From IMG/VR virus record IMGVR_UViG_3300005663_003096: 64,000 bases of DNA; one strand, given 5' to 3'. The notes beneath the pieces are model-generated. The model searched no databases, was not told the DNA's origin, and saw only the letters and a list, made by a program, of their open reading frames with translations. Positions 1,522-35,416 of this stretch are shown one piece after another (position 1 is the stretch's first letter; each line of letters begins with the position of its first letter). Both the position numbers and the translations under genes were made by a program. Origin of the DNA: a virus (Duplodnaviria; Heunggongvirae; Uroviricota; Caudoviricetes).

Positions 1522-2376
1522 TCAGGCGGACCGTTTCATATGCTTGTACTTCCGATCAAAGCTCGCGAGCTTGGGCAGGTCCATGGCGGCCGGCGAGGCG
1601 CGCATCTTGCCATGATCCAGGAACAGGCTGACAGCGCGATCACGATCGATGATCTTCATCGATTTATCGTCCTGACGTGGGCCCCACCCCACCCGCAGGA
1701 GATAGTTCAACATGCCATCGGGATCGACGCCGTCATCGCGGTAGCCCAGAAGACTTGCCGCGGCGTCTCGCTTGGACATCTTTTTGCCGTCCATCGTGAT
1801 CAAGCCGACATGGGCGAAGTCCGGCATCGCGGCTCCGAGGGCCGTGTAGAGCCCAGCATGGCGGAAGGTATTGGTCAGATGATCCATGCCGCGGATAACG
1901 AGGTTCACACCAAGATCGATGTCATCGACCACGGAGGCGAAATGATAGACCGGCATGCCATCGGCTTTGATTAGCACCTGATCATGCGCCAGATCATGCG
2001 CCTTGGCGCTGGGCAGCTGGTCGCCGGAAATCAGATCATGCCAAGGGGCTGCCGCCCCACCCTTCATCAGTACAGCACCATTATCGGCACGGACCGCCAG
2101 CCCTGCATCTAGAAGCTTTGCAGCCGCGGCGTCATAGATGTCGCGCCGGTGCGACTGGCGGTAGACGGCATCGGGTGCAAGGCCCAGCCAATCGAGACAG
2201 TCGTGGATCACGTCGATCGAGGCGTGGTTGTTGCGCGCAAGATCCGTGTCATCGATGCGCAAGATGAAGCGACCGCCACTGGCGCGCGCTGCGAGCCAGT
2301 TGAAATATGCGGTGCGGGCGGTGCCGATGTGAAAGTCGCCGGTTGGAGATGGGGCGACGCGGGTCGTATAGGTCAT
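1522..2376 (-). CDS. gluQ: glutamyl-tRNA synthetase catalytic-domain paralog (GluQRS/YadB-like; no anticodon-binding domain), ~285 aa
   Basis: Protein from MTYTTRVAPSPTGDFHIGTARTAYFNWLAARASGGRFILRIDDTDLARN with HIGH-type motif (HIGT) and KMSKR. It aligns along the GluRS catalytic core (…VVDDIDLGVNLVIRGMDHLTNT…GKKMSKR…LLGYRDDG…NYLLRVGW) but stops after ~285 aa, as in GluQ-RS. Start set at the ATG at 2376, which has an AAGGA Shine-Dalgarno upstream; the track ORF start at 2538 is upstream read-through. Confidence 0.65.
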   Translation of the reverse strand: MTYTTRVAPSPTGDFHIGTARTAYFNWLAARASGGRFILRIDDTDLARNNHASIDVIHDCLDWLGLAPDAVYRQSHRRDIYDAAAAKLLDAGLAVRADNGAVLMKGGAAAPWHDLISGDQLPSAKAHDLAHDQVLIKADGMPVYHFASVVDDIDLGVNLVIRGMDHLTNTFRHAGLYTALGAAMPDFAHVGLITMDGKKMSKRDAAASLLGYRDDGVDPDGMLNYLLRVGWGPRQDDKSMKIIDRDRAVSLFLDHGKMRASPAAMDLPKLASFDRKYKHMKRSA

Positions 2377-2389
2377 TGCGAAAATCCTT

Positions 2390-2740
2390 TCAGACGCCAA
2401 TTCGATGTGCGTGAGCCTGCAGGTCTTCCGGGTCCGCGATGCGCGAGACGCAGAATGCCATTGGCTCATTGAGAGAAGCCGCAACCAGATCAGGAAACTC
2501 GGCTTTGAGGGTTCGGTATGAAGCCAGGGCTTCTTCATCGAAATACGATCCTATGTGGACCGATGTGGGTAGATAATCTCCGGATGTAGGATCAAAGAGG
2601 CGCTGTGCATCTTGATCTGATCTCTGGCGTGTCTGAAGAACCTTGCTGCGCATCCATGCAGCTGCTTCGCCCCGATCGGGGAAGCGGGGCAGCTCCGGAT
2701 CTGGGGAACGTCGTTTGAAACGGCTCAGCATGGACAGCAT
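2390..2740 (-). CDS. hypothetical protein (~116 aa) between the tRNA genes and the GluRS paralog
   Basis: Sub-ORF of track ORF 2390..2851 starting at MLSMLSRFKRR, just downstream of tRNA-like gene 1. Same strand as, and immediately upstream of, the GluRS paralog. Confidence 0.35.
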   Translation of the reverse strand: MLSMLSRFKRRSPDPELPRFPDRGEAAAWMRSKVLQTRQRSDQDAQRLFDPTSGDYLPTSVHIGSYFDEEALASYRTLKAEFPDLVAASLNEPMAFCVSRIADPEDLQAHAHRIGV

Positions 2741-2756
2741 CTTGGTCTCCTGAATT

Positions 2757-2832
2757 TGGCATCCGCAGCGAGGATCGAACTCGCGTCTTCGGGGTGAGGT
2801 CCCGGTATTCTGACCAATTGAACTATGCGGAC
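2757..2832 (-). tRNA. tRNA-like gene, probably tRNA-Glu(CUC), atypical anticodon arm (C33, 27:43 mismatch); possible pseudo-tRNA
   Basis: Reverse complement GTCCGCATAGTTCAATTGGTCAGAATACCGGGACCTCACCCCGAAGACGCGAGTTCGATCCTCGCTGCGGATGCCA folds as a cloverleaf. It has a 7-bp acceptor stem (G1:U72), D-arm GTTC/GAAT, T-arm GCGAG-TTCGATC-CTCGC, discriminator G and an encoded CCA. The anticodon loop ACCTCAC carries C33. Confidence 0.45.
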
Positions 2833-2845
2833 GTGGTTGTGATTT

Positions 2846-2921
2846 TGGCATCTCCTACGAGTCTCGAACTCGTTTCTGCTGCTTGAAAGGCGGCTGTTCT
2901 AACCGGGTGAACTAAGGAGAC
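2846..2921 (-). tRNA. tRNA-Glu(UUC)-like gene, one C·A mismatch in the anticodon stem
   Basis: Reverse complement GTCTCCTTAGTTCACCCGGTTAGAACAGCCGCCTTTCAAGCAGCAGAAACGAGTTCGAGACTCGTAGGAGATGCCA folds as a cloverleaf. It has a 7-bp acceptor stem, D-arm GTTC/GAAC, a canonical anticodon loop CTTTCAA (U33, anticodon TTC, A37), a perfect T-arm ACGAG/CTCGT, discriminator G and an encoded CCA. It lies 13 nt from tRNA-like gene 1. Confidence 0.55.
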
Positions 2922-4769: not shown

Positions 4770-4948
4770 TGCGAAAAACCCCTCTGTGTTAAAGTATATA
4801 TATTCGCACTTCTTGTTGGGGCAACCTGTCGCTGTAGGAGTAATTCTGCCCAGCGAGGCTTAAAACTTCTTTGAACCTCTGGATTATCGCAAGCCATCCC
4901 TATACTGGCGGCACCAATCGAGATGAGAAGAACGAGTCCACAGGCAGT

Positions 4949-5473
4949 ATGATCACAGCAACCCTCATCGGCTATCTCGCGATTGCCATCAGCATCACCA
5001 GTTACATGCTGCGTGATGACCACCGCCTGCGGGTTCTGAACGTCATCTCATGCCTGTTCTGGACCAGCTATTTTGTGATGCTCGGTGAGTGGACCTCGGT
5101 CGCCAGCCTTTCTCTTGCCTGCGTGATGATCTGGGGTGCGCTCTATAGGCACAAACGTACTGCAAATGTCGCCTGGTACCTTTGTATTGCGGCGATTCCG
5201 GCCTCCTTTATGGCTGTCGCCGCAGGGCAGATCACAATGATCGATACCCTCCCCTTCATCGGCGGTGCGGCCATCAATACCGGTGTCGCATTTCTAAGCC
5301 GCGGCAAGCTCACCCTCGCCTGCGCGGCCGGGGAATGTACCTGGGGCCTCTTTGCGGTGATGATTGGCGCCTGGCCAAGCGCCTTCATGGCCCTGTTCTC
5401 ACTGGGTGCTTTGGCCTATCGGGAGTTCTCGCGCTTCAGCTACGAACGCCAGGTCGGGAACGCGCCCGCCTGA
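4949..5473 (+). CDS. multi-pass inner membrane protein
   Basis: Several hydrophobic helices (ATLIGYLAIAISITSYML; VISCLFWTSYFVMLG; WYLCIAAIPASFMAVAAG). Start placed at the ATG at 4949 (MITATL…) inside track ORF 4871..5473. Confidence 0.5.
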   Translation: MITATLIGYLAIAISITSYMLRDDHRLRVLNVISCLFWTSYFVMLGEWTSVASLSLACVMIWGALYRHKRTANVAWYLCIAAIPASFMAVAAGQITMIDTLPFIGGAAINTGVAFLSRGKLTLACAAGECTWGLFAVMIGAWPSAFMALFSLGALAYREFSRFSYERQVGNAPA

Positions 5474-5486
5474 GGCAGGCGCCCTG

Positions 5487-6764
5487 TCAAGGACAGGGCT
5501 CCTCCACTCCCAGGGCTTTTCGCAGTGTGATCTCAACATTCTCACGGCAGGGCCCTTCTGATTTGAGCTTGAGATCATGCCCGCAAAGACCTCCGATAAC
5601 CTCGGCGAGGTTCTCAGTGTCAATCTCTGAAACAAAGGGCCCCTCTCCCATATCCATCACCGAGATCTCGATCTTATCGCCCAGCTGATCGAGGCAGGTG
5701 ACCCCCAGGCCATGATCAATGCCTACGCCCTGCCCTGTGCTGCGCGCGAGATCGGCCGAGATGATGCGGTCCAGCTCTCGGAGGTCCAGAGGTGCATAAC
5801 GGATGGCGTCCTGCCATTCGTTTGGCCTGTTGGTGCGGTCGATCACCTCAGTACCGGGCAAGGGCGTCGTTCCGCGGTCGAGCGGGAACGGCCCTGCCCC
5901 GTGTCGCGTTGCATAGGCCCGGGTCATATAGATGATCTCGAGATCGGTGATCTCGGCGTCTCGAGCGATGTCCACCATATTCTTGGCGCCAGTATGCGAC
6001 CGCGTCACGTGAGGGAATTCTCCGAGGTCCATATCGAGTTGCAACCCTTGGGCGCCCTCAAAGACAATGGCATCGCGATCGCCCAGGGCGCTATCCGACA
6101 TGATCGAGACATACTGCGTAAAGTGGCGCAGATCGTCATAAAATCGCTCAACGACTTCTGGGGCGTTGCCGAGAACAGGCTTTAAATGGTCTGGGATGCT
6201 ATCGAGACCAAGGGCTGCCAGGCGCTGCGGCACCCAAGAACTCGAAATCTCGTCGAGAAATCGTGCGAGGTCAGGCCGCCAAAGGTCATTCATGCAAAGC
6301 ATTGGCCCCTGCTCCTGCCGTTCCAAGGTCTCACCAAAGCCGAGACCACAAGATCCGTGCTTATCACCGCCGCGGAAAATCTCAGCTGCCTGATTGATGG
6401 CCATGTCCCAGGGTGTTGTCACCGCTGTGCGCGGATCGGCCGTGATCTGAATATCCTTTACGCCTTTGCGCGCGAGATCCTCGATCTCAGCAAAGAAGAC
6501 AATCGGATGAGATACAAAGAAGCGGGACAGATGGGTGGCGGCGCCTCGGAAGGATCCGGACCCGATGTGATGGAAGACATGGTGGCGGCCGTCAGCCATG
6601 GTGACGCCGTGGCCCGCCTGTGCGCCGCCATTGGAACGCACGACAGTGACCTGGCGCCCCTGCCCCTCAAGCTGCGCCGTGAGCGCATCTGTGGCCAGCC
6701 CCTTGCCTTCATCACCCCAGCCGGCGCCGATGATCCCACAGGCTTTGCGGATGTCATTTCCCAT
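5487..6764 (-). CDS. adenylosuccinate synthetase (PurA) family protein, divergent paralog
   Basis: Matches PurA signatures: GAGWGDEGKG (P-loop-like GDEGKGK), GGAQAGHGV, FEGAQGLQLDMDLGEFPHVTRSHT, RAYATRHGAGPFP and GVGIDHGLGV. It is 425 aa, clearly divergent from housekeeping PurA. Confidence 0.7.
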   Translation of the reverse strand: MGNDIRKACGIIGAGWGDEGKGLATDALTAQLEGQGRQVTVVRSNGGAQAGHGVTMADGRHHVFHHIGSGSFRGAATHLSRFFVSHPIVFFAEIEDLARKGVKDIQITADPRTAVTTPWDMAINQAAEIFRGGDKHGSCGLGFGETLERQEQGPMLCMNDLWRPDLARFLDEISSSWVPQRLAALGLDSIPDHLKPVLGNAPEVVERFYDDLRHFTQYVSIMSDSALGDRDAIVFEGAQGLQLDMDLGEFPHVTRSHTGAKNMVDIARDAEITDLEIIYMTRAYATRHGAGPFPLDRGTTPLPGTEVIDRTNRPNEWQDAIRYAPLDLRELDRIISADLARSTGQGVGIDHGLGVTCLDQLGDKIEISVMDMGEGPFVSEIDTENLAEVIGGLCGHDLKLKSEGPCRENVEITLRKALGVEEPCP

Positions 6765-6902: not shown

Positions 6903-7289
6903 TCACACGACCATCGGGAAAAGTAAAATCGACATGGACAGCCACACGTTTCCACGCTCGGGAGATGCGAAGCGTTTGTCGTCCCCTTCAGTGATCCGAA
7001 CCGCAGCTGGGTATCCGGCCGTGACCCCATGCATCACCATGCCCAGAGCCCCATCGTCGAAATAGCGTAGCTTGTCGAAGTCCTTGTTAAAGAAAGCCCC
7101 ATAGGGTTTCAGCGTGTTGGCCAGCTCCCCCAGACCGTACATCCCAAGCTTCATTTCCATCTCGCGGAATGTCTTACGCATGAGGGGGAAGTGGCGCTCG
7201 GGGATGCGCAGGACGATTTCGGCCTCGCTGTTTTGCGGGGTTTGGTTCGCAGCTGGAGATGCAGCACCGCAGGTGGGGCATTTGGTCAT
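6903..7289 (-). CDS. hypothetical protein with N-terminal CPTC zinc-ribbon-like motif; probably continues to ~6780 through a frameshift
   Basis: ORF of 128 aa (MTKCPTCGAASPAANQ…). The 120 nt between its stop and the PurA-like start at 6764 are protein-coding in the -1 frame (…RVAVHVDFTFPDGRVKPMAVAEHATPEAAAWFTDYIADLCARLSPAEQNAVHHDT*). Confidence 0.45.
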   Translation of the reverse strand: MTKCPTCGAASPAANQTPQNSEAEIVLRIPERHFPLMRKTFREMEMKLGMYGLGELANTLKPYGAFFNKDFDKLRYFDDGALGMVMHGVTAGYPAAVRITEGDDKRFASPERGNVWLSMSILLFPMVV

Positions 7290-7343
7290 AGATGTTCGCT
7301 CCGGGGAGAATTGGGCCTGATCGGACTATTAAAGTCCTTCTGA

Positions 7344-8306
7344 TTATGGCGTGGGTGTCTCATCTTCTGTGGTTAGGTCGCTGTCGGGAGACGTAGGGAT
7401 GCCGAGGCGTATGTCTGTGGTTGAGATACGCCAATCCGCCTTACCCGCCGCAATCCGAACCAGATGATCCCCCTCAAAGCTTGCCGTGATGTCTTCAGGC
7501 GTTACACCGGTAAGCTCCTCCAATACCCTTGCTTCAATCCAGCTATCTTCCATTGAAGCGATGAAGGTATCCGTTGCTTTATTTTGGATTTTCTCATCTA
7601 CGAAGAGAGACCAGGCTTCTTGGCCCGCAAACTCGAGAATGAGATATTGGGTGCCGTCCTTCCGGACCTTCATTGAAGCTTCCTTGCAGAACAGACTATA
7701 TACGAGCGCCGCGTTAGCCCCCTGCCTTGCCTTCCTCGGGGAAAGATCGAGATCGAGGAAGGCATCGAAAGACTTCTGGTATTGCTGTGAAAATTTGGTT
7801 TCGAAATCTCGCAGGACGCGCGCAGCGGCCTCGATTTCGGGTGGGGTGATGTCACCGTTCTGGGCATCTTCCAGGCCGCGGTCGTAGAATGCCGCATAGC
7901 GCTCCATGGAGGACTGATTGCGCATTGTGAAGAGGTCATCCACAAGGGCCGAGCCCTCCGGTGGCATCTGGCTGCCCGCGGCAGCCCCCGTGAGATATTC
8001 GGCTTGGGCAGCTTGATATTCACCGAGGACCTGGCCCGGATCATCGAGATGATGAGGCATGATCGGAAGGACGCTCGTTGCATATTGCAGCCCTTGGACA
8101 ACGGCGATGCCACCGATACCCCAGATGGAATACATCCTGGACCATTTCGCTTTTGCGGTGTTCTTGGCGGTATCTAAGGCCAAGTTGCCGACCCTTTGAT
8201 AGAGCGGGGTATCAGCATTGGTCAGGCGGTCCTTGAGAGATTGAAGCTCTTCTTTCTTCTTCTCAATGCTGGCCCGCGTTGCCGTTCTGATGCGTTTCAT
8301 CTGCAT
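7344..8306 (-). CDS. hypothetical protein (one predicted TM segment)
   Basis: ORF of 320 aa. Hydrophobic stretch IWGIGGIAVVQGLQYATSVL. It is part of the minus-strand operon 10865→7344. Confidence 0.45.
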   Translation of the reverse strand: MQMKRIRTATRASIEKKKEELQSLKDRLTNADTPLYQRVGNLALDTAKNTAKAKWSRMYSIWGIGGIAVVQGLQYATSVLPIMPHHLDDPGQVLGEYQAAQAEYLTGAAAGSQMPPEGSALVDDLFTMRNQSSMERYAAFYDRGLEDAQNGDITPPEIEAAARVLRDFETKFSQQYQKSFDAFLDLDLSPRKARQGANAALVYSLFCKEASMKVRKDGTQYLILEFAGQEAWSLFVDEKIQNKATDTFIASMEDSWIEARVLEELTGVTPEDITASFEGDHLVRIAAGKADWRISTTDIRLGIPTSPDSDLTTEDETPTP

Positions 8307-8320
8307 CCCTTTCTGCCAGT

Positions 8321-8755
8321 TCAGTCGAGCTCGATCTCATCTTCAGGCTCGTCTTCGGGCTCATATCTCTGGATCCAATCCTCGATCGTCAGGACATGGG
8401 CCTCACTGGCAGCGGCGCCCAGGGGTCCGAAGGCGCCATGGCAGCCGCTCGAGCGCTGGGCCATTTTTTGGAACACGGCGGCTCCATAATTCTGAAGCTC
8501 TTCATCGGCCATCTCAGAAATTGCAGGATCGGGCTTGATGTCCTGTGCCTTGATATTTCCCATGACCACAGACCAGAGCGCCTCGGTCATCGAGGGTGCG
8601 ACCCATTCATCGGTCAGCTCCAGCGATCCGTCGAGAAGCCCGCCACCGCGCTTAGAAAGCTCCCGGAGAACCAGGGCTGGTACGGTGTTGAAATCCTCTT
8701 CTGAGAAGGCTTCGGGGTGTTTGGGATCAGGCATGATTGGCTCCGGTCTATGCAA
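8321..8755 (-). CDS. hypothetical acidic protein
   Basis: ORF of 144 aa with an acidic C-terminus (EPEDEPEDEIELD). Confidence 0.4.
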   Translation of the reverse strand: MHRPEPIMPDPKHPEAFSEEDFNTVPALVLRELSKRGGGLLDGSLELTDEWVAPSMTEALWSVVMGNIKAQDIKPDPAISEMADEELQNYGAAVFQKMAQRSSGCHGAFGPLGAAASEAHVLTIEDWIQRYEPEDEPEDEIELD

Positions 8756-8845
8756 GACACAACCCTACAAGAGGGCTGTGAAAAATCTTACAGTGATGCT
8801 CCTTCAAGGGCGTAATGCCCGGGCGTTTCCACCCGGACCACTGAC

Positions 8846-9769
8846 TCACAGCCGCTGGACGCCGCGACCCTGACCGGTCTTGGCCGGCACGCCCTTCAAG
8901 GCATTGGCCACGGTCAGTGCGGTCGAACCCGACCAGCTGGCGGCCACATCGGAGGCCATAGCGCCCTCGGTCACCTGGATCAGCGATACGACAGTCTCAA
9001 CCAGTGCGTTGACGTCCTCAAGCTGAATGGTGCGCTCAGGAAGGATCTGGCGCCAGGACGTGAGAACCTGATCGCGGCTCTGGCCCCAGTTGCAGTAGCC
9101 CTCGTTGACGAGAGCGATGTGGAAGACTTCCCAATCGCGCTGAACCATCCGGATGATGTCGGCCGCCGAGAGATCCGCTTCGACAGTGATGCCCAGAACC
9201 CGCTCGATCTCTGCTTTGGTCATGCCATCGTGGATCGGTTCATCGCCGATGGTGAAGAGATAGCCTTTGCGGCCGCGTTTCTCGATCGCATCGGCGCGGA
9301 CCTTGGTTGCGGCGAAAAGATGGGCCGATGAGTAGGATTCCCCGCCGTTGCCGCCCCCTGCCCCTTCAAGCCAGAGCTTGCGGGCCTGTTCAGCGACGCG
9401 AATATCGGCTTCGAACTGGGTTACCTGCAATGGCGCCCGGTCGGTTTTCGCATCCCCCACGCCCATGATCATGATATGCGGATCAGTGACCGGCTTGCGG
9501 TCATAGATCTGGGTCGCCAGGGTGTTGAGCCCGTCGCGCATCAGCTTCTCGGCAATCATACCCATGGAGCCGGTCACATCTGAGGCGAGGATGATCGGGG
9601 TCGACAGCGGGTTGTCCGCGGAATCCCGGCTTTCACGGAATTCAATTTTCGACGGGTCGAACTCGTCCTTCATGTTGCGCGATGTGAAAATCTGGCTTTG
9701 CGATTTACCCGCGGTGTTCTGTGCGGTGTAGCCGGCCCATGCCGAGCTGTCCCAGCGTCCATTTCCCAT
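8846..9769 (-). CDS. von Willebrand factor A (vWA) domain protein
   Basis: MIDAS-type motif ILASDVTGSMG (DxSxS) followed by a TxxxD-like segment. Start at the ATG at 9769, preceded by AAAGGAGATCTATC-ATG; the track ORF start at 9805 is upstream. Confidence 0.65.
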   Translation of the reverse strand: MGNGRWDSSAWAGYTAQNTAGKSQSQIFTSRNMKDEFDPSKIEFRESRDSADNPLSTPIILASDVTGSMGMIAEKLMRDGLNTLATQIYDRKPVTDPHIMIMGVGDAKTDRAPLQVTQFEADIRVAEQARKLWLEGAGGGNGGESYSSAHLFAATKVRADAIEKRGRKGYLFTIGDEPIHDGMTKAEIERVLGITVEADLSAADIIRMVQRDWEVFHIALVNEGYCNWGQSRDQVLTSWRQILPERTIQLEDVNALVETVVSLIQVTEGAMASDVAASWSGSTALTVANALKGVPAKTGQGRGVQRL

Positions 9770-9816
9770 GATAGATCTCCTTTTGTCTGGTCTTACATCC
9801 TGCATAGAATATTAAC

Positions 9817-9837
9817 TTGCACGTTGCAAGTTGTAAA
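9817..9837. promoter_or_regulatory. 21-bp perfect palindromic operator TAACTTGCA-cgt-TGCAAGTTA (plus an extra half-site TGCAAGTTAA at 9846-9856), upstream of the vWA gene
   Basis: Inverted repeat read directly from the sequence. A near-identical 21-mer recurs at 10899-10919. Confidence 0.6.
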
Positions 9838-9848
9838 ATGCAAGTTAA

Positions 9849-10865
9849 TTAGAGCGCGTAGACCCCCGCCCCATTTCCAGTGTATTTTGCAAAACGCCGG
9901 ACACCCCAGGCATCGGTCAGCGCCTTTTGCCATTTGCTGTAATCCGCGATCCCGTCTTTGCCGGGCGGCAGCATCAGCCAGTTGCGGATCGGCTCGGGCA
10001 GGCCCAGGCCGGAAAGCTGGCTCAAGGAGGCGGCCCCCATCGCCTCACATGTGGTGCGGCGGATCAACTCGAGATCAAGCGACGGATCCGCGGTCATGTC
10101 TTTAACGGCCATCTGGGGCGCGATCTGCAGGCTGCGGTTTGGCAACAACACCGGCCGCGTCCCGACATCTGTGGCAAAGCCCCAGCCCGCGACCAGGCGC
10201 ACCGCGTGAGTCTTGGGATCCACCATGACCGTATCGGGACCAATGGCGCCATGAACTTTACCAGCCCAGGTAAGCCAAGCAGCGATGTTCATCAGGCCCG
10301 AACAAAGCCAGGCGGCGTGTACAGGTTCCATTGGCCCGTCGCCTGACAGCAGATCGGCCAGTAGCACCTCCCCGTTCTGACGGCTGTGGGTGATCAATGT
10401 CTTGCCATCCACCAGATCGACGCGCGACTTGTTGCGTGGGAGGAACTTGCGCATCTGATCCTCCATCTTGGTATCGGCAAACTTGAAGCCCGAGAGATTG
10501 CGCAGCTCAGCTTCCGCGATATCCAAAAGATCGGCATCAAAAATCTGTGCAACACTGATGGGCCCTACCAGCAAAGTGCCGATGTCGGTCTCATGCTTTG
10601 ACAGGGTGCGCATGGCCTGTCGTCGGCCGTCGGCTTTGGTGAAGATGTATCGGGTCACCAGCATGGAGGGTTCGCCGCGGGCCGCATCGCGGAGCGTCAC
10701 CAGTTTGGCAAAAACATCGGCAGCCTTCGGATCCTGGCAATGATCCGGGTGCCAGCGGGCCGCGAGGGTGCGAAAAGACTTTTTGTCCGCCTTCTCATCC
10801 CCAGAGAAAATCTTGGACGCATCCCGCAATCCCATGTTTAGAATCTGCTCTGCATTGAGGTCCAT
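9849..10865 (-). CDS. J-domain (DnaJ-like, HPD motif) protein fused to an atypical kinase-like domain
   Basis: N-terminus FRTLAARWHPDHCQDPKAADVFAKL is a J domain with HPD. The C-terminal part carries HGAIGPDTVMVD … VRLVAGWGFA, resembling the catalytic loop and DFG-like region of RIO/APH-type kinases, with the catalytic Asp apparently replaced. Start at 10865 (TAAAGGAGATCAAA-ATG). Confidence 0.55.
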   Translation of the reverse strand: MDLNAEQILNMGLRDASKIFSGDEKADKKSFRTLAARWHPDHCQDPKAADVFAKLVTLRDAARGEPSMLVTRYIFTKADGRRQAMRTLSKHETDIGTLLVGPISVAQIFDADLLDIAEAELRNLSGFKFADTKMEDQMRKFLPRNKSRVDLVDGKTLITHSRQNGEVLLADLLSGDGPMEPVHAAWLCSGLMNIAAWLTWAGKVHGAIGPDTVMVDPKTHAVRLVAGWGFATDVGTRPVLLPNRSLQIAPQMAVKDMTADPSLDLELIRRTTCEAMGAASLSQLSGLGLPEPIRNWLMLPPGKDGIADYSKWQKALTDAWGVRRFAKYTGNGAGVYAL

Positions 10866-10898
10866 TTTGATCTCCTTTAGGCTGTTTGAGGATAACGT

Positions 10899-10919
10899 AG
10901 GCAATTAACTTGCATTATG
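10899..10919. promoter_or_regulatory. 21-bp palindromic operator TAACTTGCA-tta-TGCAAATTA in the divergent promoter region between the J-domain gene and the NrtR-like gene
   Basis: Near-perfect inverted repeat, same arms as the site at 9817-9837. Confidence 0.55.
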
Positions 10920-10998
10920 CAAATTATTATCCTATCTCTTGTATAACCCTGCGAAAATACTGATGCCCTGAACCAGAAAAGGTGTATCGAGAGGAGAT

Positions 10999-11697
10999 AT
11001 GATGACCGAGACCCCGCCCCGGAATGAGCGTGAGTACAACCCGATCTGCACTGTCGACGGGGTGCTTCTGACCATCGAGCAGGAATGCCTTAAGGTCTTG
11101 CTGCACCGCCGCCCCAAGGCGCCCTTTGAGGGGCGCTGGGCGCTCGTAGGCGGCTACATTCACCAGAATGAAGATGCGGGCGTGCTGGAGGCGGTCCAGC
11201 GCATCCTGCGTGACAAGGCGGGGCTACCGACGCTCTACCTTGAGCAGCTGCAGACCTACTCCGGCCCGGACCGTGACCCGCGGGGCTGGTCCGTGTCTGT
11301 GGCCCATCTGGGGCTTGTGCCGCGCGCGAAGCTAAAGCTGCCCGATGACCCGCATGTCATGCTGACAGATGTCGAAGGGCTGCCAGATCTCGCTTTCGAC
11401 CATAAGCAGATGATCGACGATGCCGTCGCGCGGCTGCGCGGTAAGGGCGCCTATTCCTCCCTGCCCGCTGCCCTGCTGGATGATCTCTTCACCCTGCCCG
11501 AGCTGCTGCGTACCTATGAGATCGTTCTGGGCACCAAGATCGATGAGAGCTCCTTCCGTCGCAAGATAAATGCCCTCGAGATGATCGAGGACAGCGGTGA
11601 GAAGCGCAAGACCGGCAGCAAGCGTCCGGCGGCGCTCTATCGCCTAACCGAGCCCGCGCAGACCTTTAATCGAACATTTGCGGCCGCGGCGGGCTGA
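10999..11697 (+). CDS. Nudix-domain transcriptional regulator, NrtR-like (degenerate Nudix box plus C-terminal winged-helix region)
   Basis: Nudix-like segment GRWALVGGYIHQNEDAGVLEAVQRILRDKAGL (Gx5Ex7R..L..D.AGL, degenerate). Total length ~230 aa with a C-terminal domain, as in NrtR. Strong Shine-Dalgarno GAGAGGAGAT before the ATG. Confidence 0.55.
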   Translation: MMTETPPRNEREYNPICTVDGVLLTIEQECLKVLLHRRPKAPFEGRWALVGGYIHQNEDAGVLEAVQRILRDKAGLPTLYLEQLQTYSGPDRDPRGWSVSVAHLGLVPRAKLKLPDDPHVMLTDVEGLPDLAFDHKQMIDDAVARLRGKGAYSSLPAALLDDLFTLPELLRTYEIVLGTKIDESSFRRKINALEMIEDSGEKRKTGSKRPAALYRLTEPAQTFNRTFAAAAG

Positions 11698-11700
11698 GGA

Positions 11701-13041
11701 ATGACAGGTTTGGAGGGCTATAGCATCTACCCTGGGCCGGGCGACCTGTCGCCGGTGCTGCAGCGCTATTGCATGGAGGCCGGCAACAGCGGCATCTACA
11801 TCTTCCACCATCAGTTCTGCGTCTGCCCCTTTCCTTTGGCGTTCCCCGTACCTCTCGAGAAACTGCTTCATGAGCGTGAAGAGGCTGCCATGGCAGCGCT
11901 CGCGGCCGGAGACACAGACTCCTTTCTGCTCCGGCACGAAAAGCCCTACCGGCCTGAAGCGCTGATGGATCTGGTTAACGAGGGTCATTTCGACAGCAAG
12001 CCCGAAGAATACTGGCGGCTCGTGCGCAAGGTCTGGGTCGACAGCGATCTGCCTGAAGATGATCCCTATTGGGCGGAAATGCTCGAGGCGGACATTGGCA
12101 GTGTTCAAGCCATGATGGGCGAAGGGGATCGCGCCCAGCTCGCGGCAATGCCTGAGGTCATTCAGGTCTGGCGCGGTGTCGAGGGCATGGATGAGACCTC
12201 AGCGCGCGAAGCTGTGACCGCAGGGCACAGCTGGAGCATCGATCCGAAGATTGCCGAACGTTTCGCGAAAAGTTTCGCGCGCAGCTCAGGCGAAGCATGG
12301 GTTGCTCGTGCTGACATCCCAAAAGCAAGGGTCGTCGCCTACCTGGCCGACCGCGGCGAAGCAGAGATCATTCTGCGGCCCTCCGATATTGCGGAGCTCG
12401 AATTTGACCTGATCTCTCTCGGTTCGAAGTCGCAGGGGTTTTCAGACCTTCAGGATAAACTGCTCGAGGAACAGCATAATGGAGAAACTATGACCTTCAC
12501 TGACAAGATCAAAGCGCACCTTGAGAGCTTTAAGAACGATGAAGAGGGCCACAAGCTCTTCCCTCATGCGGATTGGCGCTATGAGGTCGACAATGACGAC
12601 ACCAGCCTGGGTTATGACGATTGGCTTTCGGACAAGATCGATTTCGAAGTCGATGACGTTGCGGATAACGTCAACCGTTTCATCTACCGCGGCTGCAAGG
12701 CCACCGACGGCGAGATTTCCGAGATTGAGTTCAACCGCGATGTGGTCGACACCTTCTCGACCCTGCGGATCATCGATGATGAAGCCGTTGATCGCGCCAA
12801 TGGGTTTCTTGGCGAGGCGCCTGAAAAGCCGGTCTTCGGAGAAAGCTTTGGCTCTGTGCCCTCGGACGTAGCCGCAGATCTTTCGCGGATCGCACATCTC
12901 GGTATGGTCTTTTTCGAGGGGCGCTCCACGGCTGATAAAATCACCTCTGTCTTGGTTGAGGCAGCCGAGAAGCATGGGATCACCGGCTCTGGTGTTGATG
13001 CGGCACGCGCCCGAGCAGGTGGGGAAACTCCGGAGCCGTGA
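11701..13041 (+). CDS. hypothetical protein (446 aa; possibly two fused ORFs)
   Basis: Long ORF immediately after the NrtR-like gene. No recognisable motif. Confidence 0.4.
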   Translation: MTGLEGYSIYPGPGDLSPVLQRYCMEAGNSGIYIFHHQFCVCPFPLAFPVPLEKLLHEREEAAMAALAAGDTDSFLLRHEKPYRPEALMDLVNEGHFDSKPEEYWRLVRKVWVDSDLPEDDPYWAEMLEADIGSVQAMMGEGDRAQLAAMPEVIQVWRGVEGMDETSAREAVTAGHSWSIDPKIAERFAKSFARSSGEAWVARADIPKARVVAYLADRGEAEIILRPSDIAELEFDLISLGSKSQGFSDLQDKLLEEQHNGETMTFTDKIKAHLESFKNDEEGHKLFPHADWRYEVDNDDTSLGYDDWLSDKIDFEVDDVADNVNRFIYRGCKATDGEISEIEFNRDVVDTFSTLRIIDDEAVDRANGFLGEAPEKPVFGESFGSVPSDVAADLSRIAHLGMVFFEGRSTADKITSVLVEAAEKHGITGSGVDAARARAGGETPEP

Positions 13042-14052: not shown

Positions 14053-14625
14053 ATGGAAGTTAATCTGCGCAAAGCGAATGCAATCCAGCACGAGATCAAG
14101 AATGCGATCCGCGCTCTCGAAGCCCCTACCCGCGTCGATATCACCGAGTTTGAAGTCGGTGAAGATGCTATTGCGAAAACCAAAGAGAAGTCGCTTGAAG
14201 CGCGCCGCTCCTGGGACGATCTGACCAAGACCCTCTACGACATCCGTCGTAAGGTCGGCGTTGCGAACACAACTTCCGGGATCGATACGGCTCTGTCCGA
14301 GGTTGCCGAGATTGACGATCGCGTGGCAATGTTGCGCCATCTCGTGGCGCCCTCCGCTCAGCGTATGGAGCCTGAGGTCCTGGCCGGTCGTTTGAATAAG
14401 TTGAAAGACTCGCCGCGGGAAACGCACCACTATGCGATGCCCGACGAAAAGGTCACCACCGGCATCTACACGGCTGATGAAATCGAAGCCTTCAACGCGG
14501 AGATCGCGAACCTGCGTCGCCGCAAGCGCGCGCTGCAGGATGAGCTGCTCGCCATGAACGTCCAGAATACGATCGGGCTCACTGATGAGAGCATTGCCTG
14601 CCTCCAGGTTGCCGGTATCGTCTAA
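14053..14625 (+). CDS. hypothetical protein (coiled-coil-like)
   Basis: ORF of 190 aa. Upstream region carries tandem TTTTCGCAA motifs. Followed by the hairpin CGCCGCC-TTCG-GGCGGCG at 14641-14658. Confidence 0.45.
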   Translation: MEVNLRKANAIQHEIKNAIRALEAPTRVDITEFEVGEDAIAKTKEKSLEARRSWDDLTKTLYDIRRKVGVANTTSGIDTALSEVAEIDDRVAMLRHLVAPSAQRMEPEVLAGRLNKLKDSPRETHHYAMPDEKVTTGIYTADEIEAFNAEIANLRRRKRALQDELLAMNVQNTIGLTDESIACLQVAGIV

Positions 14626-14978
14626 GTTTGATGGCACGTCGCCGCCTTCGGGCGGCGATAACCATCCGGGAAGGGAGTTGAAAGACAGGTTCTTTGTGCG
14701 GTCTCTTACCGCATGATCCTCAAGCTTCACTGCTTGCTATGGCTCATAAAAAGGCGCGCTCCGGTGTCACCCAGGCCCTACCAGAAGCCAAGTGCATTTT
14801 GCTCACCGGTCTATGCCTATTTTGCACAGTTGCATATTGCATCTTGCCATCCTCGCGGAGTGCTTATTGCTTTACCTGGCTTTCGCCCCTTTCCGTCAAA
14901 TATCCCATACTAACAATAAATTGGAGGGAGCCCGCGAACGCGGGATCCTCTGTGGGCTGGCTCTGAACCAAATCGTGC

Positions 14979-15533
14979 TCAACCGGCGTCCGGCTCAGTC
15001 TTTCCAAAGATATTTGGCGATAAATACAGCCCGCGGCGCCAGAACCAGTGCGGGGGCTTATCATAGTTGAACGTGGGGATAGCTCTCCACGAGCCCCTGG
15101 CAACAACTTCCTCAATGACATTCCGTGCAGCCGTTTCGAAGTGTTGACAACGCGTAATCTCCTCATCGATCCTGAAGGTAACGTCATAGGCCCAGACCTG
15201 AGACGCATAGCGCAATGTCACAGCAGTTTCCGAGTGAGCTTCAATGGAGCCATCAGGGTAAAATTCGCATGAAACGTTCATGGGTCGGAACGTGTCATGC
15301 TGAGTATGCTCAACCCAGGCCACCACTTTAATGTCGCCAACAGCCCTTACCTTGATGCGCTCTTCTGCCAAGAGCTTTTCGCCGGGTGCGGTCGCTGCCA
15401 GGAAGACGTCGGCTGCCCTATTTTTGGGGGATCGTATCTCGACCCCAGCGAACCACATGATGCCATAGACGACTGCGATATAGGCCACTATACGCGCAAT
15501 CACCTCCCAAATTTCCATACGTTTTTCGCTCAT
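14979..15533 (-). CDS. membrane-anchored protein, paralog A of a tandem pair
   Basis: N-terminal TM (IVAYIAVVYGIMWFAGV). C-terminal region ITRCQHFETAARNVIEEVVARGSWRAIPTFNYD is homologous to the C-terminus of 15585..16151. Confidence 0.5.
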   Translation of the reverse strand: MSEKRMEIWEVIARIVAYIAVVYGIMWFAGVEIRSPKNRAADVFLAATAPGEKLLAEERIKVRAVGDIKVVAWVEHTQHDTFRPMNVSCEFYPDGSIEAHSETAVTLRYASQVWAYDVTFRIDEEITRCQHFETAARNVIEEVVARGSWRAIPTFNYDKPPHWFWRRGLYLSPNIFGKTEPDAG

Positions 15534-23582: not shown

Positions 23583-23636
23583 TTAAAACGCTTAAACTGA
23601 GTAGCGATATAACTTTTGAAACTTACGGACGAATTT

Positions 23637-29892: not shown

Positions 29893-30004
29893 GGTCTTGT
29901 CCTTTATGGAGAGAGGACAGCCGCATGATGGGAAGGGTCTTTCAGGACATCTCAAGCCGCATCACGCGGCCGATCCTGGGGTTGGTCACAGGAATTGGGC
30001 CGCC

Positions 30005-35161: not shown

Positions 35162-35416
35162 ATGTATCTCTCCATCGGATGACTATACAGCCTAGTTATC
35201 CGCTTTTTCGCAATGCGCAACTCCGTTGAGAATAATTAATGTAAATTTTCGCTAGAAGGCTTGAGGGCTTCGGCTTCCATCAAAGGTCAGGGCCCTTTGA
35301 ATTGGGAATTTGACCATAGTCCTCCCCCTATCGTAGCGTTCCATCAACACGGCGGTTGATTATGACAAGCCTCGACCGGCCAACATGCTGATCAACATAG
35401 ATTGAATGGATTACCT

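What the first reader, a model, noticed from the sequence alone, without database searches (positions are those of the whole stretch)
7344..11697. NrtR-like Nudix regulator with two 21-bp palindromic operators controlling a J-domain kinase-like protein and vWA operon
A Nudix-plus-wHTH (NrtR-like) gene is divergently transcribed from a four-gene operon: J-domain fused to an RIO/APH-like kinase-like domain, vWA protein, and two hypotheticals. Near-identical 21-bp palindromes (TAACTTGCA-N3-TGCAAGTTA) sit at the operon promoter (9817-9837, plus a half-site) and in the divergent region (10899-10919). NrtR regulators respond to ADP-ribose or NAD metabolites, so this would link an NAD-derived signal to a module combining a J-domain (Hsp70 recruitment), a kinase-like domain and a vWA domain. 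This is reminiscent of vWA/kinase conflict systems but with an unusual J-domain fusion.
Basis: partly seen in the sequence, partly recalled or inferred. Interest (0 to 1): 0.65.

Follow-up and report, generated by a model that had tools for sequence, protein, structure and literature searches.

The report
NrtR-controlled vWA/PurA-like gene cassette
A repressor of the type that senses the NAD breakdown product ADP-ribose has conserved binding sites in front of a widespread, unstudied gene set (a J-domain pseudokinase, a vWA protein and an altered adenylosuccinate-synthetase-like enzyme) that in some other bacteria and large phages sits beside NAD-salvage genes.

Summary
nrtR (10999-11697) is a full-length NrtR homologue. 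The 21-bp palindromes exist, 4-7 bp from the stated coordinates: 9813-9833, an overlapping second box at 9827-9847, and 10906-10926. None is expected by chance. The consensus YAAnTTGCAnnnTGCAAnTTR occurs 98 times in the equivalent regulatory gaps of 61 related loci and never in the other 938 kb.

The "kinase" is a J domain (HPD kept from phages to Clostridium) fused to a Hanks-type kinase fold that lacks the catalytic residues. It is a pseudokinase, not RIO/APH-like. The vWA fold and a MIDAS-like motif are confirmed.

It follows the vWA gene in 78 of 80 genomes and in four groups of large phages. It keeps PurA's catalytic core but has lost the aspartate-binding arginines.

The J-pseudokinase is an optional accessory. 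NrtR is the usual regulator. In Clostridium and another Bacillota genome the cassette lies in one operon with NrtR, a Prs-like gene, PncA and NAMPT (plus PARG in Clostridium). In one alphaproteobacterium it overlaps NAMPT.

Most likely this is an ADP-ribose-inducible module linked to NAD salvage. Its chemistry is unknown. I found no description in the searchable literature.

The parts
10999..11697 (+). nrtR: a Nudix-like sensor domain with a degenerate Nudix box (RILRDKAGL instead of REUxEExGU) plus an NrtR winged-helix DNA-binding domain
   Evidence: Pfam NrtR_WHD 4e-22 and NUDIX 6.5e-8. NCBIfam NrtR model scores 155 bits, below the equivalog cut-off of 400. PDB 3GZ5 (S. oneidensis NrtR) matches at E 9e-37 across the full length. 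The Nudix box was read directly from the sequence.
11701..13041 (+). p446, which starts 3 nt after the nrtR stop and is therefore probably co-transcribed. Its N-terminal ~235 aa belong to phrog_4776 and carry an invariant R...SxS/T...ExE pattern. This makes it a candidate ADP-ribosyltransferase, unproven.
   Evidence: phrog_4776 at 2.7e-27. Alignment A6 shows R158/G159, S177/W178 and E220/E222 invariant across phage homologues that are 27-31% identical. There is no Pfam or PDB sequence support.
10906..10926 (.). NrtR box C (TAACTTGCATTATGCAAATTA) in the nrtR / J-pseudokinase divergent region. It lies immediately downstream of a predicted minus-strand -10 element.
10926..10955 (-). Predicted sigma-70-like promoter of the J-pseudokinase gene (TTCGCA-18-GATAAT)
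   Evidence: This is a consensus match only.
9849..10865 (-). J-domain (aa ~20-65, invariant WHPD) fused to a Hanks-type protein-kinase fold that lacks the catalytic residues (a pseudokinase)
9813..9847 (.). NrtR boxes A (9813-9833) and B (9827-9847). They overlap by 7 bp, are offset by 14 bp, and cover the predicted vWA promoter.
   Evidence: The same double-box arrangement is seen in L004, L008, L013 and L015.
9809..9837 (-). Predicted sigma-70-like promoter of the vWA gene (TTTACA-17-TAATAT)
   Evidence: This is a consensus match only.
8846..9769 (-). vWA-fold protein (phrog_2971) with a MIDAS-like D64-x-T66-x-S68 motif, an invariant D176, and an invariant N-terminus MG..RW
   Evidence: phrog_2971 at 1e-49. 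Alignments A2 and A3. The AF2 model has pLDDT 84.8. Foldseek matches integrin beta-I, SpaC and Ku80 vWA domains at E 3e-6 to 1e-4.
8321..8755 (-). p144, an acidic ORF specific to this lineage (public gene calls start it at 8734, giving 137 aa)
   Evidence: Homologue found only in L004-L007. No family hits. Gene calls.
7344..8306 (-). p320, an ORF inserted in this lineage only
   Evidence: No homologue in any other locus. Only a weak PADLOC match to PDC-M34B, E 0.003.
6903..7289 (-). p128, an ORF specific to this lineage
   Evidence: Homologue found only in L004-L007.
5487..6764 (-). PurA-like GTP-dependent ligase. The P-loop, D13, H41, Q224, D333 and S414/G416 are kept. The aspartate-binding residues T301, R303 and R305 and the IMP-phosphate contacts T129 and R143 are replaced. 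This is the conserved partner of the vWA gene.
   Evidence: Pfam Adenylsucc_synt 1.8e-43, covering only aa 11-296. NCBIfam PurA scores 127 bits against a cut-off of 402; PurZ scores 39 against 300. phrog_1211. PDB PurA at E 1e-23. Residue census over 81 family members. Adjacency in 78 of 80 loci.
14826..14846 (.). Possible third NrtR box (ACAGTTGCATATTGCATCTTG, 3 mismatches to the consensus) inside a gene-free stretch (14626-14900) that is unusually conserved
   Evidence: Its function is unknown. No promoter is predicted.

Best explanation
This is a repressor-controlled module linked to NAD/ADP-ribose.

Proposed regulation. NrtR dimers bind 21-bp boxes (consensus YAAnTTGCAnnnTGCAAnTTR) that lie over two promoters. 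One drives the J-domain pseudokinase gene. The other, covered by a double box, drives the vWA gene and the genes downstream of it, ending in the PurA-like gene. When the NrtR ligand accumulates, the repressor leaves the DNA and the module is expressed. By homology the ligand is ADP-ribose or a close NAD-derived nucleotide, which is released when NAD is cleaved.

Proposed action. The working core is the vWA protein together with an atypical PurA-family enzyme. That enzyme should still use GTP to phosphorylate a 6-oxopurine-type substrate. It should then join the substrate to an amine other than aspartate. The J-domain pseudokinase is an optional adaptor. Its HPD motif would recruit DnaK/Hsp70 to whatever its inactive kinase domain binds. 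Elsewhere the module is co-transcribed with NAMPT, Prs-like and PncA genes (plus PARG in Clostridium), and large lytic phages carry it among nucleotide and NAD genes. Its role is therefore most likely to support rebuilding of the NAD/adenine-nucleotide pool after NAD breakdown.

Shown here: domain identities, loss of catalytic and substrate-binding residues, gene linkage, and conservation and promoter overlap of the operators.

Inferred: the ligand, repression itself, the enzyme's substrates, DnaK recruitment, and the physiological role.
For: Regulator: a full-length NrtR homologue with a degenerate Nudix box like the non-catalytic S. oneidensis NrtR (sequence).

Operators:
- 3 matches in the window against 0 expected.
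- They overlap the predicted -35/-10 elements of both minus-strand promoters.
- 98 sites with at most 2 mismatches lie in 10.4 kb of NrtR-Jkin, Jkin-vWA and NrtR-vWA gaps of 61 loci. None lies in the remaining 938 kb.
- The double box with a 14-bp offset recurs in relatives.
- The 21-bp palindromic symmetry matches the general NrtR motif architecture (PMC2330246).

Linkage:
- vWA and PurA-like are adjacent in 78 of 80 genome loci from Alphaproteobacteria, Gammaproteobacteria, Bacillota, Cyanobacteria, Acidobacteria and Actinomycetota.
- They are also adjacent in Mycobacterium Bixzunavirus, Vibrio phiKT1024-like, Rhizobium RHph and a gut phage scaffold.
- NrtR is adjacent in at least 56 of 80 loci.
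- Gene starts and stops overlap in pAtS4e and L072, which suggests translational coupling.

NAD link:
- Clostridium beijerinckii-group loci and a Bacillota MAG carry NrtR, Prs-like, isochorismatase, NAMPT, (PARG), Jkin, vWA and PurA-like on one strand.
- L072 carries vWA, PurA-like and NAMPT with 4-nt overlaps.
- The Rhizobium phage has a PRTase and an NMNAT/Nudix gene 3 kb away. The Vibrio phage has NADAR.

Enzyme: the catalytic D13, H41, Q224 and P-loop are invariant. D333 is kept in 79 and G416 in 76 of 81 members. T301, R303, R305, T129 and R143 are replaced.

J domain and pseudokinase.
Against: - No experiment or ligand-site analysis shows that this NrtR subgroup binds ADP-ribose. Family members can use other ligands, such as AraR with arabinose (5BS6 is the second-best PDB match).
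- The NCBIfam NrtR equivalog score is far below its cut-off.
- The box core is TG-N7-CA rather than the GT-N7-AC reported for most NrtR groups.
- 27 of 61 loci have no box at 2 or fewer mismatches. Their motifs have diverged or differ.
- The window itself holds no recognised NAD-salvage gene near the cassette.
- In the window three unrelated ORFs separate vWA from the PurA-like gene, so co-transcription is assumed rather than shown. No operator lies in front of the PurA-like gene.
- Co-location with NAMPT is seen in only a few lineages.
- The substrate of the PurA-like enzyme and any vWA/PurA-like/J-protein contacts are unknown.
Confidence: 0.55

Rival explanations
1. The cassette is an abortive-infection or conflict system. 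NrtR senses ADP-ribose produced during phage attack or by viral ADP-ribosyltransferases. The PurA-like enzyme is then a toxic effector that drains GTP or IMP, or makes a poisonous nucleotide. The vWA protein and J-pseudokinase act as sensors or chaperones.
For: The cassette is compact, patchily distributed across phyla and set in varied genomic surroundings. These include neighbours such as nSTAND/TPR, EVE, HepT/MNT and AbiEii genes. Nudix-HTH regulators and vWA chaperones have been predicted in ADPr-centred immune systems (PMC9503650). In the window nrtR is followed by a candidate ADP-ribosyltransferase.
Against: PADLOC gives no hit to any core protein. The same vWA/PurA-like pair sits in the nucleotide-metabolism regions of large lytic phages, where a suicide effector is unlikely. 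In Bacillota and L072 it is co-transcribed with biosynthetic NAD-salvage genes. No ARG, nuclease, pore or other typical effector is present.
Confidence: 0.15
2. The PurA-like gene is simply a second, regulated adenylosuccinate synthetase. It tops up AMP/ATP for NAD resynthesis. The vWA protein and J-pseudokinase are unrelated passengers or stabilisers.
For: Annotation pipelines call it adenylosuccinate synthetase. The catalytic D13, H41, Q224, P-loop and guanine-binding D333 are kept. NAD rebuilding through Prs, NAMPT and NMNAT consumes adenylate (established pathway knowledge).
Against: T301, R303 and R305, which hold aspartate in E. coli PurA, are replaced in essentially all 81 members: R303 and T301 in all, R305 in at least 80. 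T129 and R143, which hold the IMP phosphate, are also changed. New invariant residues appear (H273, N298, Q301). Scores are far below the PurA equivalog cut-offs. The strict pairing with a vWA gene in 78 of 80 loci, often with overlapping stop and start codons, is not explained.
Confidence: 0.15
3. The module is a chaperone set (a J protein plus a vWA co-chaperone) for the assembly of phage or host complexes. Regulation by NrtR would be incidental.
For: J-domain proteins and MoxR-vWA pairs occur in jumbo phages and are proposed to be assembly chaperones (PMC7824862). The window looks like part of a very large phage or phage-like replicon.
Against: The J protein is missing from more than half of the loci, while the enzyme is nearly always present. 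No MoxR ATPase is present. Most carriers are ordinary bacterial chromosomes and plasmids.
Confidence: 0.05
4. The palindromes are not operators. They are intrinsic terminators or repeated phage intergenic elements.
For: The 9814-9832 palindrome directly follows the J-kinase stop codon. It was flagged as terminator-like on the minus strand and folds into a hairpin.
Against: The stem is AT-rich with 3 G-C pairs. What is conserved is the sequence, not merely the ability to pair. In genomes without the J gene the same box lies between nrtR and vWA. It is found only in these gaps, 98 sites against 0. The window holds only four box-like sites.
Confidence: 0.03

Closest known systems
NrtR regulons of NAD salvage (e.g. 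Shewanella oneidensis NrtR controlling prs-nadV; Rodionov et al. 2008, PMC2330246)
   Same: The two-domain regulator is the same (E 9e-37 to the S. oneidensis structure). The operators are 21-bp palindromes that overlap promoters. The regulator gene lies divergently next to its target. In Bacillota the same operon even contains Prs-like and NAMPT genes.
   Different: The target genes here (vWA, PurA-like, J-pseudokinase) are not known NAD enzymes and do not appear in that paper. The box core is TG-N7-CA rather than GT-N7-AC. The ligand is untested.
Phage NAD+ reconstitution pathways NARP1, NARP2 and NARP3
   Same: All are auxiliary NAD-related genes carried by phages. In Rhizobium phages the vWA/PurA-like pair lies about 3 kb from PRTase and NMNAT/Nudix genes that resemble NARP2. 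The Clostridium operon pairs a short Prs-like gene with a NAMPT-family gene.
   Different: None of the described NARP enzymes (Adps/Namat, Nampt/Nmnat, PnuC/NadR-like; abstracts) is a PurA homologue, a vWA protein or a J protein. No NAD-forming activity is shown or predictable for this cassette.
Adenylosuccinate synthetase PurA and the phage enzyme PurZ
   Same: The fold and the phosphotransfer machinery are shared (GDEGKG P-loop, D13, H41, Q224), as are the GTP-base contacts D333 and S414-G416.
   Different: The aspartate-binding loop and the IMP-phosphate contacts are replaced. Scores fall below the curated cut-offs for both PurA and PurZ. The enzyme is always paired with a vWA protein.
ARG / Nudix-HTH / vWA 'anti-ADP-ribosylation' systems predicted by Iyer et al. 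2022 (PMC9503650)
   Same: An NrtR-like Nudix-HTH repressor is proposed as an ADPr sensor, and a vWA protein is an accessory peptide-binding component.
   Different: There is no ADP-ribosylglycohydrolase or phosphatase here. The enzyme is a PurA homologue, which that survey does not mention (0 occurrences).
DNAJB1-PRKACA chimera (structural analogue only)
   Same: It is the best Foldseek match, with a J domain followed by a protein-kinase fold in one chain.
   Different: The human fusion is an oncogenic accident with an active kinase. This is a natural, conserved prokaryotic and phage family with an inactive kinase domain.
TerY-P / vWA-kinase-phosphatase triads
   Same: A vWA protein is encoded next to a protein with a kinase fold.
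   Different: No PP2C phosphatase is present, the kinase domain lacks its catalytic residues, and the constant partner is a PurA-like enzyme. The comparison rests on my recollection of that system, not on a test.

Membership tests
NrtR family regulators | N-terminal Nudix-fold domain plus C-terminal NrtR-type winged helix | tested here: met
   Pfam NUDIX 6.5e-8 and NrtR_WHD 4e-22. 3GZ5 matches at E 9e-37 over residues 16-219.
NrtR family regulators | 21-bp palindromic operators in the promoters of target genes | tested here: met
   The symmetry matches, but the core is TG-N7-CA rather than GT-N7-AC.
NrtR family regulators | DNA binding relieved by ADP-ribose | not testable with these tools
   Needs EMSA or ITC. 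The degenerate Nudix box (RILRDKAGL) fits a non-catalytic sensor (sequence).
NrtR family regulators | Orthology to characterised NrtR (NCBIfam equivalog NF050029) | tested here: not met
   155.5 bits against a cut-off of 400. It is a family member but not an equivalog.
NrtR family regulators | Regulon consists of NAD-metabolism genes | tested here: inconclusive
   The window targets are not known NAD genes. Homologous cassettes are co-operonic with NAMPT, Prs-like and PncA, plus PARG in Clostridium, in a few lineages.
J-domain (Hsp40) co-chaperones | Helix II - HPD - helix III J domain | tested here: met
   WHPD is invariant in A1. HPD is kept in 40 of the 41 distant homologues that cover the motif. 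The family profile matches PDB J domains at E 5e-7. Helices span 24-38 and 48-63 in the model. The single sequence falls below the Pfam cut-off (19.4 against 27.8 bits).
J-domain (Hsp40) co-chaperones | Stimulates the Hsp70/DnaK ATPase | not testable with these tools
   Needs a biochemical assay.
Hanks-type (eukaryotic-like) protein kinases | Bilobal protein-kinase fold | tested here: met
Hanks-type (eukaryotic-like) protein kinases | Catalytic residues: beta3 Lys, HRD Asp, catalytic-loop Asn, DFG Asp | tested here: not met
   The catalytic loop reads VHGAIxPxT and the DFG position reads GGW. No Lys, Asp or Asn is invariant at these positions. The protein is therefore a pseudokinase.
von Willebrand factor A (vWA) domain proteins | Alpha/beta Rossmann-like vWA fold | tested here: met
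   AF2 pLDDT 84.8. Foldseek matches integrin beta-I, SpaC, Ku80 and RGLG1 vWA domains. There are no Pfam or PDB sequence hits.
von Willebrand factor A (vWA) domain proteins | MIDAS metal site (DxSxS ... T ... D) | tested here: inconclusive
   D64-x-T66-x-S68 is invariant, and D176 is invariant at the end of strand 169-175. The motif is a DxTxS variant. Metal binding was not tested.
Adenylosuccinate synthetase (PurA) | P-loop GDEGKG, catalytic Asp13 and His41, Gln224 | tested here: met
   Invariant in 81 family members.
Adenylosuccinate synthetase (PurA) | Aspartate-binding Thr301, Arg303, Arg305 and IMP-phosphate contacts Thr129, Arg143 | tested here: not met
   Replaced by Q/W, G/D, L/I, C and variable residues. 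The roles of these residues are from my knowledge of the E. coli PurA structures.
Adenylosuccinate synthetase (PurA) | Score above the curated equivalog cut-off | tested here: not met
   127 bits against 402 for NF002223; 121 against 396 for TIGR00184.
PurZ (aminoadenine pathway) | Score above the NF038379 cut-off | tested here: not met
   39 bits against 300.
Known anti-phage defence systems (PADLOC 2.0) | Match to any defence-system protein model | tested here: not met
   No hits for NrtR, Jkin, vWA or PurA-like. Only p320 gives a weak match, E 0.003.

The most novel reading that the evidence does not exclude
The vWA protein and the atypical PurA-family enzyme together carry out a nucleotide reaction not yet described, which belongs to NAD/ADP-ribose salvage or counter-defence. 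ADP-ribose would switch it on through NrtR. Both bacteria and large phages would use it, as a further 'NAD-reconstitution-type' module. One concrete form of the idea is a GTP-driven ligation of a 6-oxopurine nucleotide to a non-aspartate amine. That amine could conceivably be the invariant N-terminal glycine of the vWA partner, with a J-domain pseudokinase bringing in Hsp70. In this window the regulator is also co-transcribed with a candidate ADP-ribosyltransferase, so the whole locus would be a self-contained NAD/ADPr circuit on a giant phage-like replicon.
Probability: 0.25. Interest if true: 0.85.

Novelty: new variant of a known kind. Interest (0 to 1): 0.68.

Why it matters
NAD depletion and its reversal are now a central theme in phage-bacterium conflict, and three phage NAD-rebuilding routes are described.

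This work defines a fourth kind of gene set. It is tied to the same regulator (NrtR) and in some lineages to the same salvage genes (NAMPT, Prs-like, PncA and, in Clostridium, PARG). It is widespread in bacteria and in large phages of Mycobacterium, Vibrio and Rhizobium. Its enzyme is a PurA relative that can no longer bind aspartate in the usual way.

If the module proves to act on the NAD or adenine-nucleotide pool, several things follow:
- It would add a new reaction to purine/NAD metabolism.
- It would explain the long-annotated 'PurA-like' and 'serine/threonine kinase' genes of cluster C mycobacteriophages.
- It would give the first function for a natural J-domain pseudokinase.

The operator consensus also makes the regulon directly searchable in thousands of genomes.

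Tried and rejected
- Megablast of 7000-12000 against plasmids: no match.
- PADLOC on nine proteins: nothing significant.
- Single-sequence and profile PDB searches with the vWA protein: nothing useful. Only the fold search identified it.
- The search for related loci with the J-kinase alignment failed because it has no sufficiently conserved stretch. The vWA alignment was used instead.
- I tested whether the proteins upstream of vWA in the Vibrio and Rhizobium phages are hidden J-pseudokinases. hhalign probability was below 1%, so the idea was rejected.
- I looked for vWA-PurA-like fusion proteins and found none.
- Rfam scans of the window and of 14500-15100 found only the two tRNA-Glu genes.
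- Promoter scan of 14600-15000: nothing.
- Pfam at E up to 10 and PDB searches for p446, p144, p320 and p128: nothing credible. The ADP-ribosyltransferase idea for p446 therefore rests on a motif pattern only.
- Nine literature searches found no paper describing this cassette. They combined NrtR, adenylosuccinate, vWA, J-domain, pseudokinase, NADAR, NARP, PurA-like and phage.
- NARP3 was checked and is unrelated: it is a PnuC plus NadR-like pair.
- PMC2896262, the NrtR structure paper, is not held. ADP-ribose-contact residues could therefore not be compared.
- No phage structural gene was found among the 20 further large ORFs scanned with PHROGs outside the cassette. Whether the replicon is a huge phage or a megaplasmid stays open.

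Full report
**What is in the sequence.**

On the plus strand, nrtR (10999-11697) encodes a 232-aa protein. It matches Pfam NrtR_WHD (4e-22), AraR_C and NUDIX (6.5e-8). It matches the Shewanella oneidensis NrtR structure 3GZ5 at E 9e-37 over residues 16-219. Its Nudix box reads RILRDKAGL where the catalytic signature is REUxEExGU. Like the non-catalytic S. oneidensis protein, it therefore looks like a sensor rather than a hydrolase (read from the sequence). It scores far below NCBI's equivalog cut-off (155 against 400 bits). It is thus a family member but not an orthologue of the characterised regulator.

Three nucleotides after its stop begins a 446-aa ORF (11701-13041).

On the minus strand, in order:
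- a 338-aa gene, 9849-10865;
- a 307-aa gene, 8846-9769;
- three ORFs at 8321-8755, 7344-8306 and 6903-7289;
- a 425-aa PurA-like gene, 5487-6764.

**The palindromes.**

The pattern TAACTTGCA-N3-TGCAAGTTA, allowing up to 3 mismatches, occurs three times in the 64 kb: at 9813-9833, 9827-9847 and 10906-10926. None is expected in 100 shuffles.

- Boxes A and B cover a predicted minus-strand promoter (TTTACA-17-TAATAT, 9837-9809). It lies between the stop of the 338-aa gene and the start of the 307-aa gene.
- Box C abuts the -10 element of a second predicted minus-strand promoter (TTCGCA-18-GATAAT, 10955-10926). That promoter lies in front of the 338-aa gene.

**The palindromes are conserved operators.**

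An alignment of homologues of the 307-aa protein retrieved 80 loci from one-genome-per-species contigs. Further loci came from plasmids, phages and metagenomes.

In 61 loci an nrtR homologue is divergent from the cassette. In these, the motif YAAnTTGCAnnnTGCAAnTTR with at most 2 mismatches occurs 98 times in the 10.4 kb of nrtR/first-gene and J-gene/vWA gaps. It never occurs in the remaining 938 kb.

Runs of overlapping boxes in 7-bp register are common, and five of 21 J-gene-containing loci have boxes in both gaps, as the window does. At this stringency 34 of the 61 loci have at least one box. The others carry diverged or different palindromes.

Most NrtR groups are reported to use 21-bp palindromes with a GT-N7-AC core (PMC2330246). 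This group keeps the 21-bp symmetry but has TG-N7-CA.

The alternative that the 9814-9832 hairpin is only a terminator does not explain three things. Sequence-level conservation is one. Its presence directly between nrtR and vWA in genomes lacking the J gene is another. The third is its exclusive occurrence in these gaps.

**The 338-aa protein.**

An alignment of 37 homologues shows WHPD invariant. HPD is kept in 40 of the 41 homologues that cover the motif. These come from a mycobacteriophage, Clostridia, cyanobacteria, Acidobacteria and Proteobacteria. The family profile hits many solved J domains (best E 5e-7).

The catalytic loop reads VHGAIxPxT, so the HRD Asp is Ala and the Asn is Thr. 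The DFG position reads GGW. No lysine is invariant in the N-lobe. The mycobacteriophage homologue, annotated 'serine/threonine kinase', keeps the Asn and a DW but also lacks the HRD Asp.

The protein is therefore a J-domain pseudokinase. It is most simply read as an adaptor that delivers DnaK/Hsp70 to a bound partner. That reading is an inference.

**The 307-aa protein.**

It has no Pfam, NCBIfam or PDB sequence hit. It belongs to phrog_2971 (1e-49) and to a large family: more than 5,600 clusters scored at E ≤ 0.001 among the 8,000 candidates examined.

The model (pLDDT 84.8) matches vWA domains of integrin beta subunits, SpaC, Ku80 and RGLG1. D64-x-T66-x-S68 and D176 are invariant, which fits a MIDAS-type metal site. 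The N-terminus MG..RW is also invariant, even in phage homologues.

**The missed partner.**

The gene at 5487-6764 matches Adenylsucc_synt only over residues 11-296 (1.8e-43). It matches solved PurA structures at about 1e-23. It scores well below the PurA and PurZ cut-offs.

I aligned 81 family members with E. coli PurA.

| Status in the family | Residues (E. coli PurA numbering) |
|---|---|
| Invariant | P-loop G12-G17, D13, H41, Q224, T239 |
| Kept in most members | Guanine-contact residues D333 (79 of 81), S414 (62), G416 (76) |
| Changed | N38 to Q, T129 to C, R143 to variable, T301 to Q/W, R303 to G/D, R305 to L/I, K331 to C |
| Newly invariant | H273, N298, Q301 |

The roles of these residues in aspartate and IMP binding are from my knowledge of the E. 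coli structures.

The enzyme should therefore still perform GTP-dependent activation of a purine-like 6-oxo group. It cannot hold aspartate in the canonical way.

**Co-occurrence.**

Among the 80 genome loci:
- The PurA-like gene follows the vWA gene on the same strand in 78. One exception ends at a contig edge; the other is a truncated vWA match.
- The gaps are mostly 0-250 bp.
- nrtR is adjacent in at least 56 loci, divergent in 54 of them.
- The J-pseudokinase lies between nrtR and vWA in at least 33.

Rhizobium, Caulobacter and Acetobacter loci have nrtR facing vWA-PurA-like with no J gene. In pAtS4e the three genes overlap by 8 and 4 nt.

The vWA-PurA-like pair also occurs in four groups of large phages:
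- about 200 cluster C mycobacteriophages, with the J-pseudokinase;
- Vibrio phiKT1024-like phages;
- Rhizobium RHph phages;
- a human-gut phage scaffold.

p144 and p128 have homologues only in the closest relatives, and p320 in none. The conserved unit is therefore vWA plus PurA-like. NrtR is its usual regulator and the J-pseudokinase a frequent accessory. The window carries lineage-specific insertions between vWA and PurA-like.

**Link to NAD metabolism.**

- In Clostridium beijerinckii-group genomes one same-strand array reads: NrtR (Nudix + NrtR_WHD), a short Prs-like protein, an isochorismatase-family (PncA-like) protein, a NAMPT-family enzyme, a microbial PARG, the J-pseudokinase, vWA, PurA-like.
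- A second Bacillota genome has the same array without PARG.
- In the alphaproteobacterial MAG L072, nrtR faces vWA, PurA-like and NAMPT, with 4-nt overlaps between each pair.
- The Rhizobium phages have a phosphoribosyltransferase and an NMNAT/Nudix gene 3 kb upstream. The Vibrio phage has a NADAR gene.

prs-nadV is the classical NrtR regulon, and ADP-ribose is the ligand that releases NrtR from DNA (PMC2330246). These are independent associations with the same pathway, and they are the main basis for the proposed role.

**How it most likely works.**

The steps below are inferred unless the preceding sections show them. NrtR occupies box C and the A/B pair and blocks both minus-strand promoters. 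It may also repress its own promoter. ADP-ribose or a related NAD-derived nucleotide relieves repression.

The vWA protein and the PurA-like enzyme then act together on a purine nucleotide with a non-aspartate amine. This helps to restore nucleotide or NAD pools after NAD cleavage. The J-pseudokinase brings Hsp70 to one of the components.

I rate this general model at 0.55. The chemistry is open.

Rivals, with my ratings:
- a defence or abortive-infection system with a toxic PurA-like effector (0.15);
- an ordinary regulated PurA paralogue (0.15);
- an assembly-chaperone set (0.05);
- non-operator palindromes (0.03).

**Context of the window.**

The window also encodes:
- a ThrRS-like class II aminoacyl-tRNA synthetase;
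- a Trp/Tyr-type class I synthetase;
- a Glu/Gln-type catalytic domain next to two tRNA-Glu genes;
- an HNH-HipA fusion;
- many ORFs with no family match or with matches to phage-only families of unknown function.

The exact PurA-like protein is found on a 282-kb MAG contig (DRFN01000049.1) and on contigs of 0.2-1 Mb. A relative that is 77% identical lies on a 642-kb contig made almost entirely of ORFs without Pfam hits. Homologues of NrtR and ThrRS occur in a 636-kb uncultured phage and in Bacillus phage G.

The closest isolate-phage relative of p446 is a Ruegeria phage. J-protein homologues come from Rhodobacterales.

The replicon is probably a very large phage or a phage-like megaplasmid of a Rhodobacterales-type host. 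No structural gene was seen, so this is not settled.

**Comparison with what is known.**

The regulatory part is a new variant of the NrtR paradigm. The regulated genes are not in the NrtR regulon paper. They are also absent from the survey of viral NAD/ADPr systems, the jumbo-phage survey and the NARP literature. Nine full-text searches found no description of the cassette.

The library does not hold most subscription-journal papers, so prior description elsewhere cannot be excluded.

Noticed in passing
window 11701-13041: The ORF that starts 3 nt after nrtR has an N-terminal phrog_4776 domain. Across Ruegeria and Mycobacterium phage homologues only 27-31% identical, R158-G159, S177-W178-S/T and E220-x-E222 are invariant. 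Their spacing is that of R-S-E ADP-ribosyltransferases. No profile or structural support could be obtained.
   Followed up: partly
window 14626-14900: This gene-free stretch between convergent genes is about 97% identical to the relative L004, whereas the cassette proteins shared with L004, including one flanking gene (p210, 80%), are only 68-94% identical. It holds a third NrtR-box-like site (14826-14846) with TTGCA repeated every 7 bp. It has no Rfam hit and no predicted promoter. It may be a regulated small RNA or another regulatory element.
   Followed up: partly
window 1522-2921, 28756-29955, 38152-39402: Three aminoacyl-tRNA-synthetase-like genes are present: a Glu/Gln-type catalytic domain, a Trp/Tyr type and a ThrRS-like class II enzyme. 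Two adjacent tRNA-Glu genes (CTC and TTC anticodons) lie nearby. This is typical of huge phages.
   Followed up: partly
window 23616-25340: A 574-aa protein fuses an N-terminal HNH endonuclease domain to a HipA-like C-terminal kinase domain.
   Followed up: no
window 8846-9769 and all homologues (alignment A2): The vWA protein has an invariant N-terminus, M-G-x-x-R/x-W/F, even in phage homologues. After methionine removal this would expose a conserved N-terminal glycine. It could be relevant as a substrate or contact for the partner enzyme.
   Followed up: no
window 4871-5473: An Imp-YgjV family inner-membrane protein is encoded convergently, 13 bp from the 3' end of the PurA-like gene. It is not conserved next to the cassette in other loci.
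   Followed up: no
L060 1814-10282 (Clostridium beijerinckii HUN142); also L055, L062, L082: A single operon reads NrtR, short Prs-like, PncA-like, NAMPT-family, microbial PARG, J-pseudokinase, vWA, PurA-like. The short Prs-like plus NAMPT-family pair resembles the Adps/Namat (NARP1) pairing described in phages. This was not tested.
   Followed up: partly
L094 8420-8827 and L095 307-714: In one lineage an EVE-domain protein occupies the upstream position where nrtR usually lies.
   Followed up: no
window 35402-36409: A PLD-like (PLDc_2) domain protein, with a Pfam score just below the cut-off.
   Followed up: no
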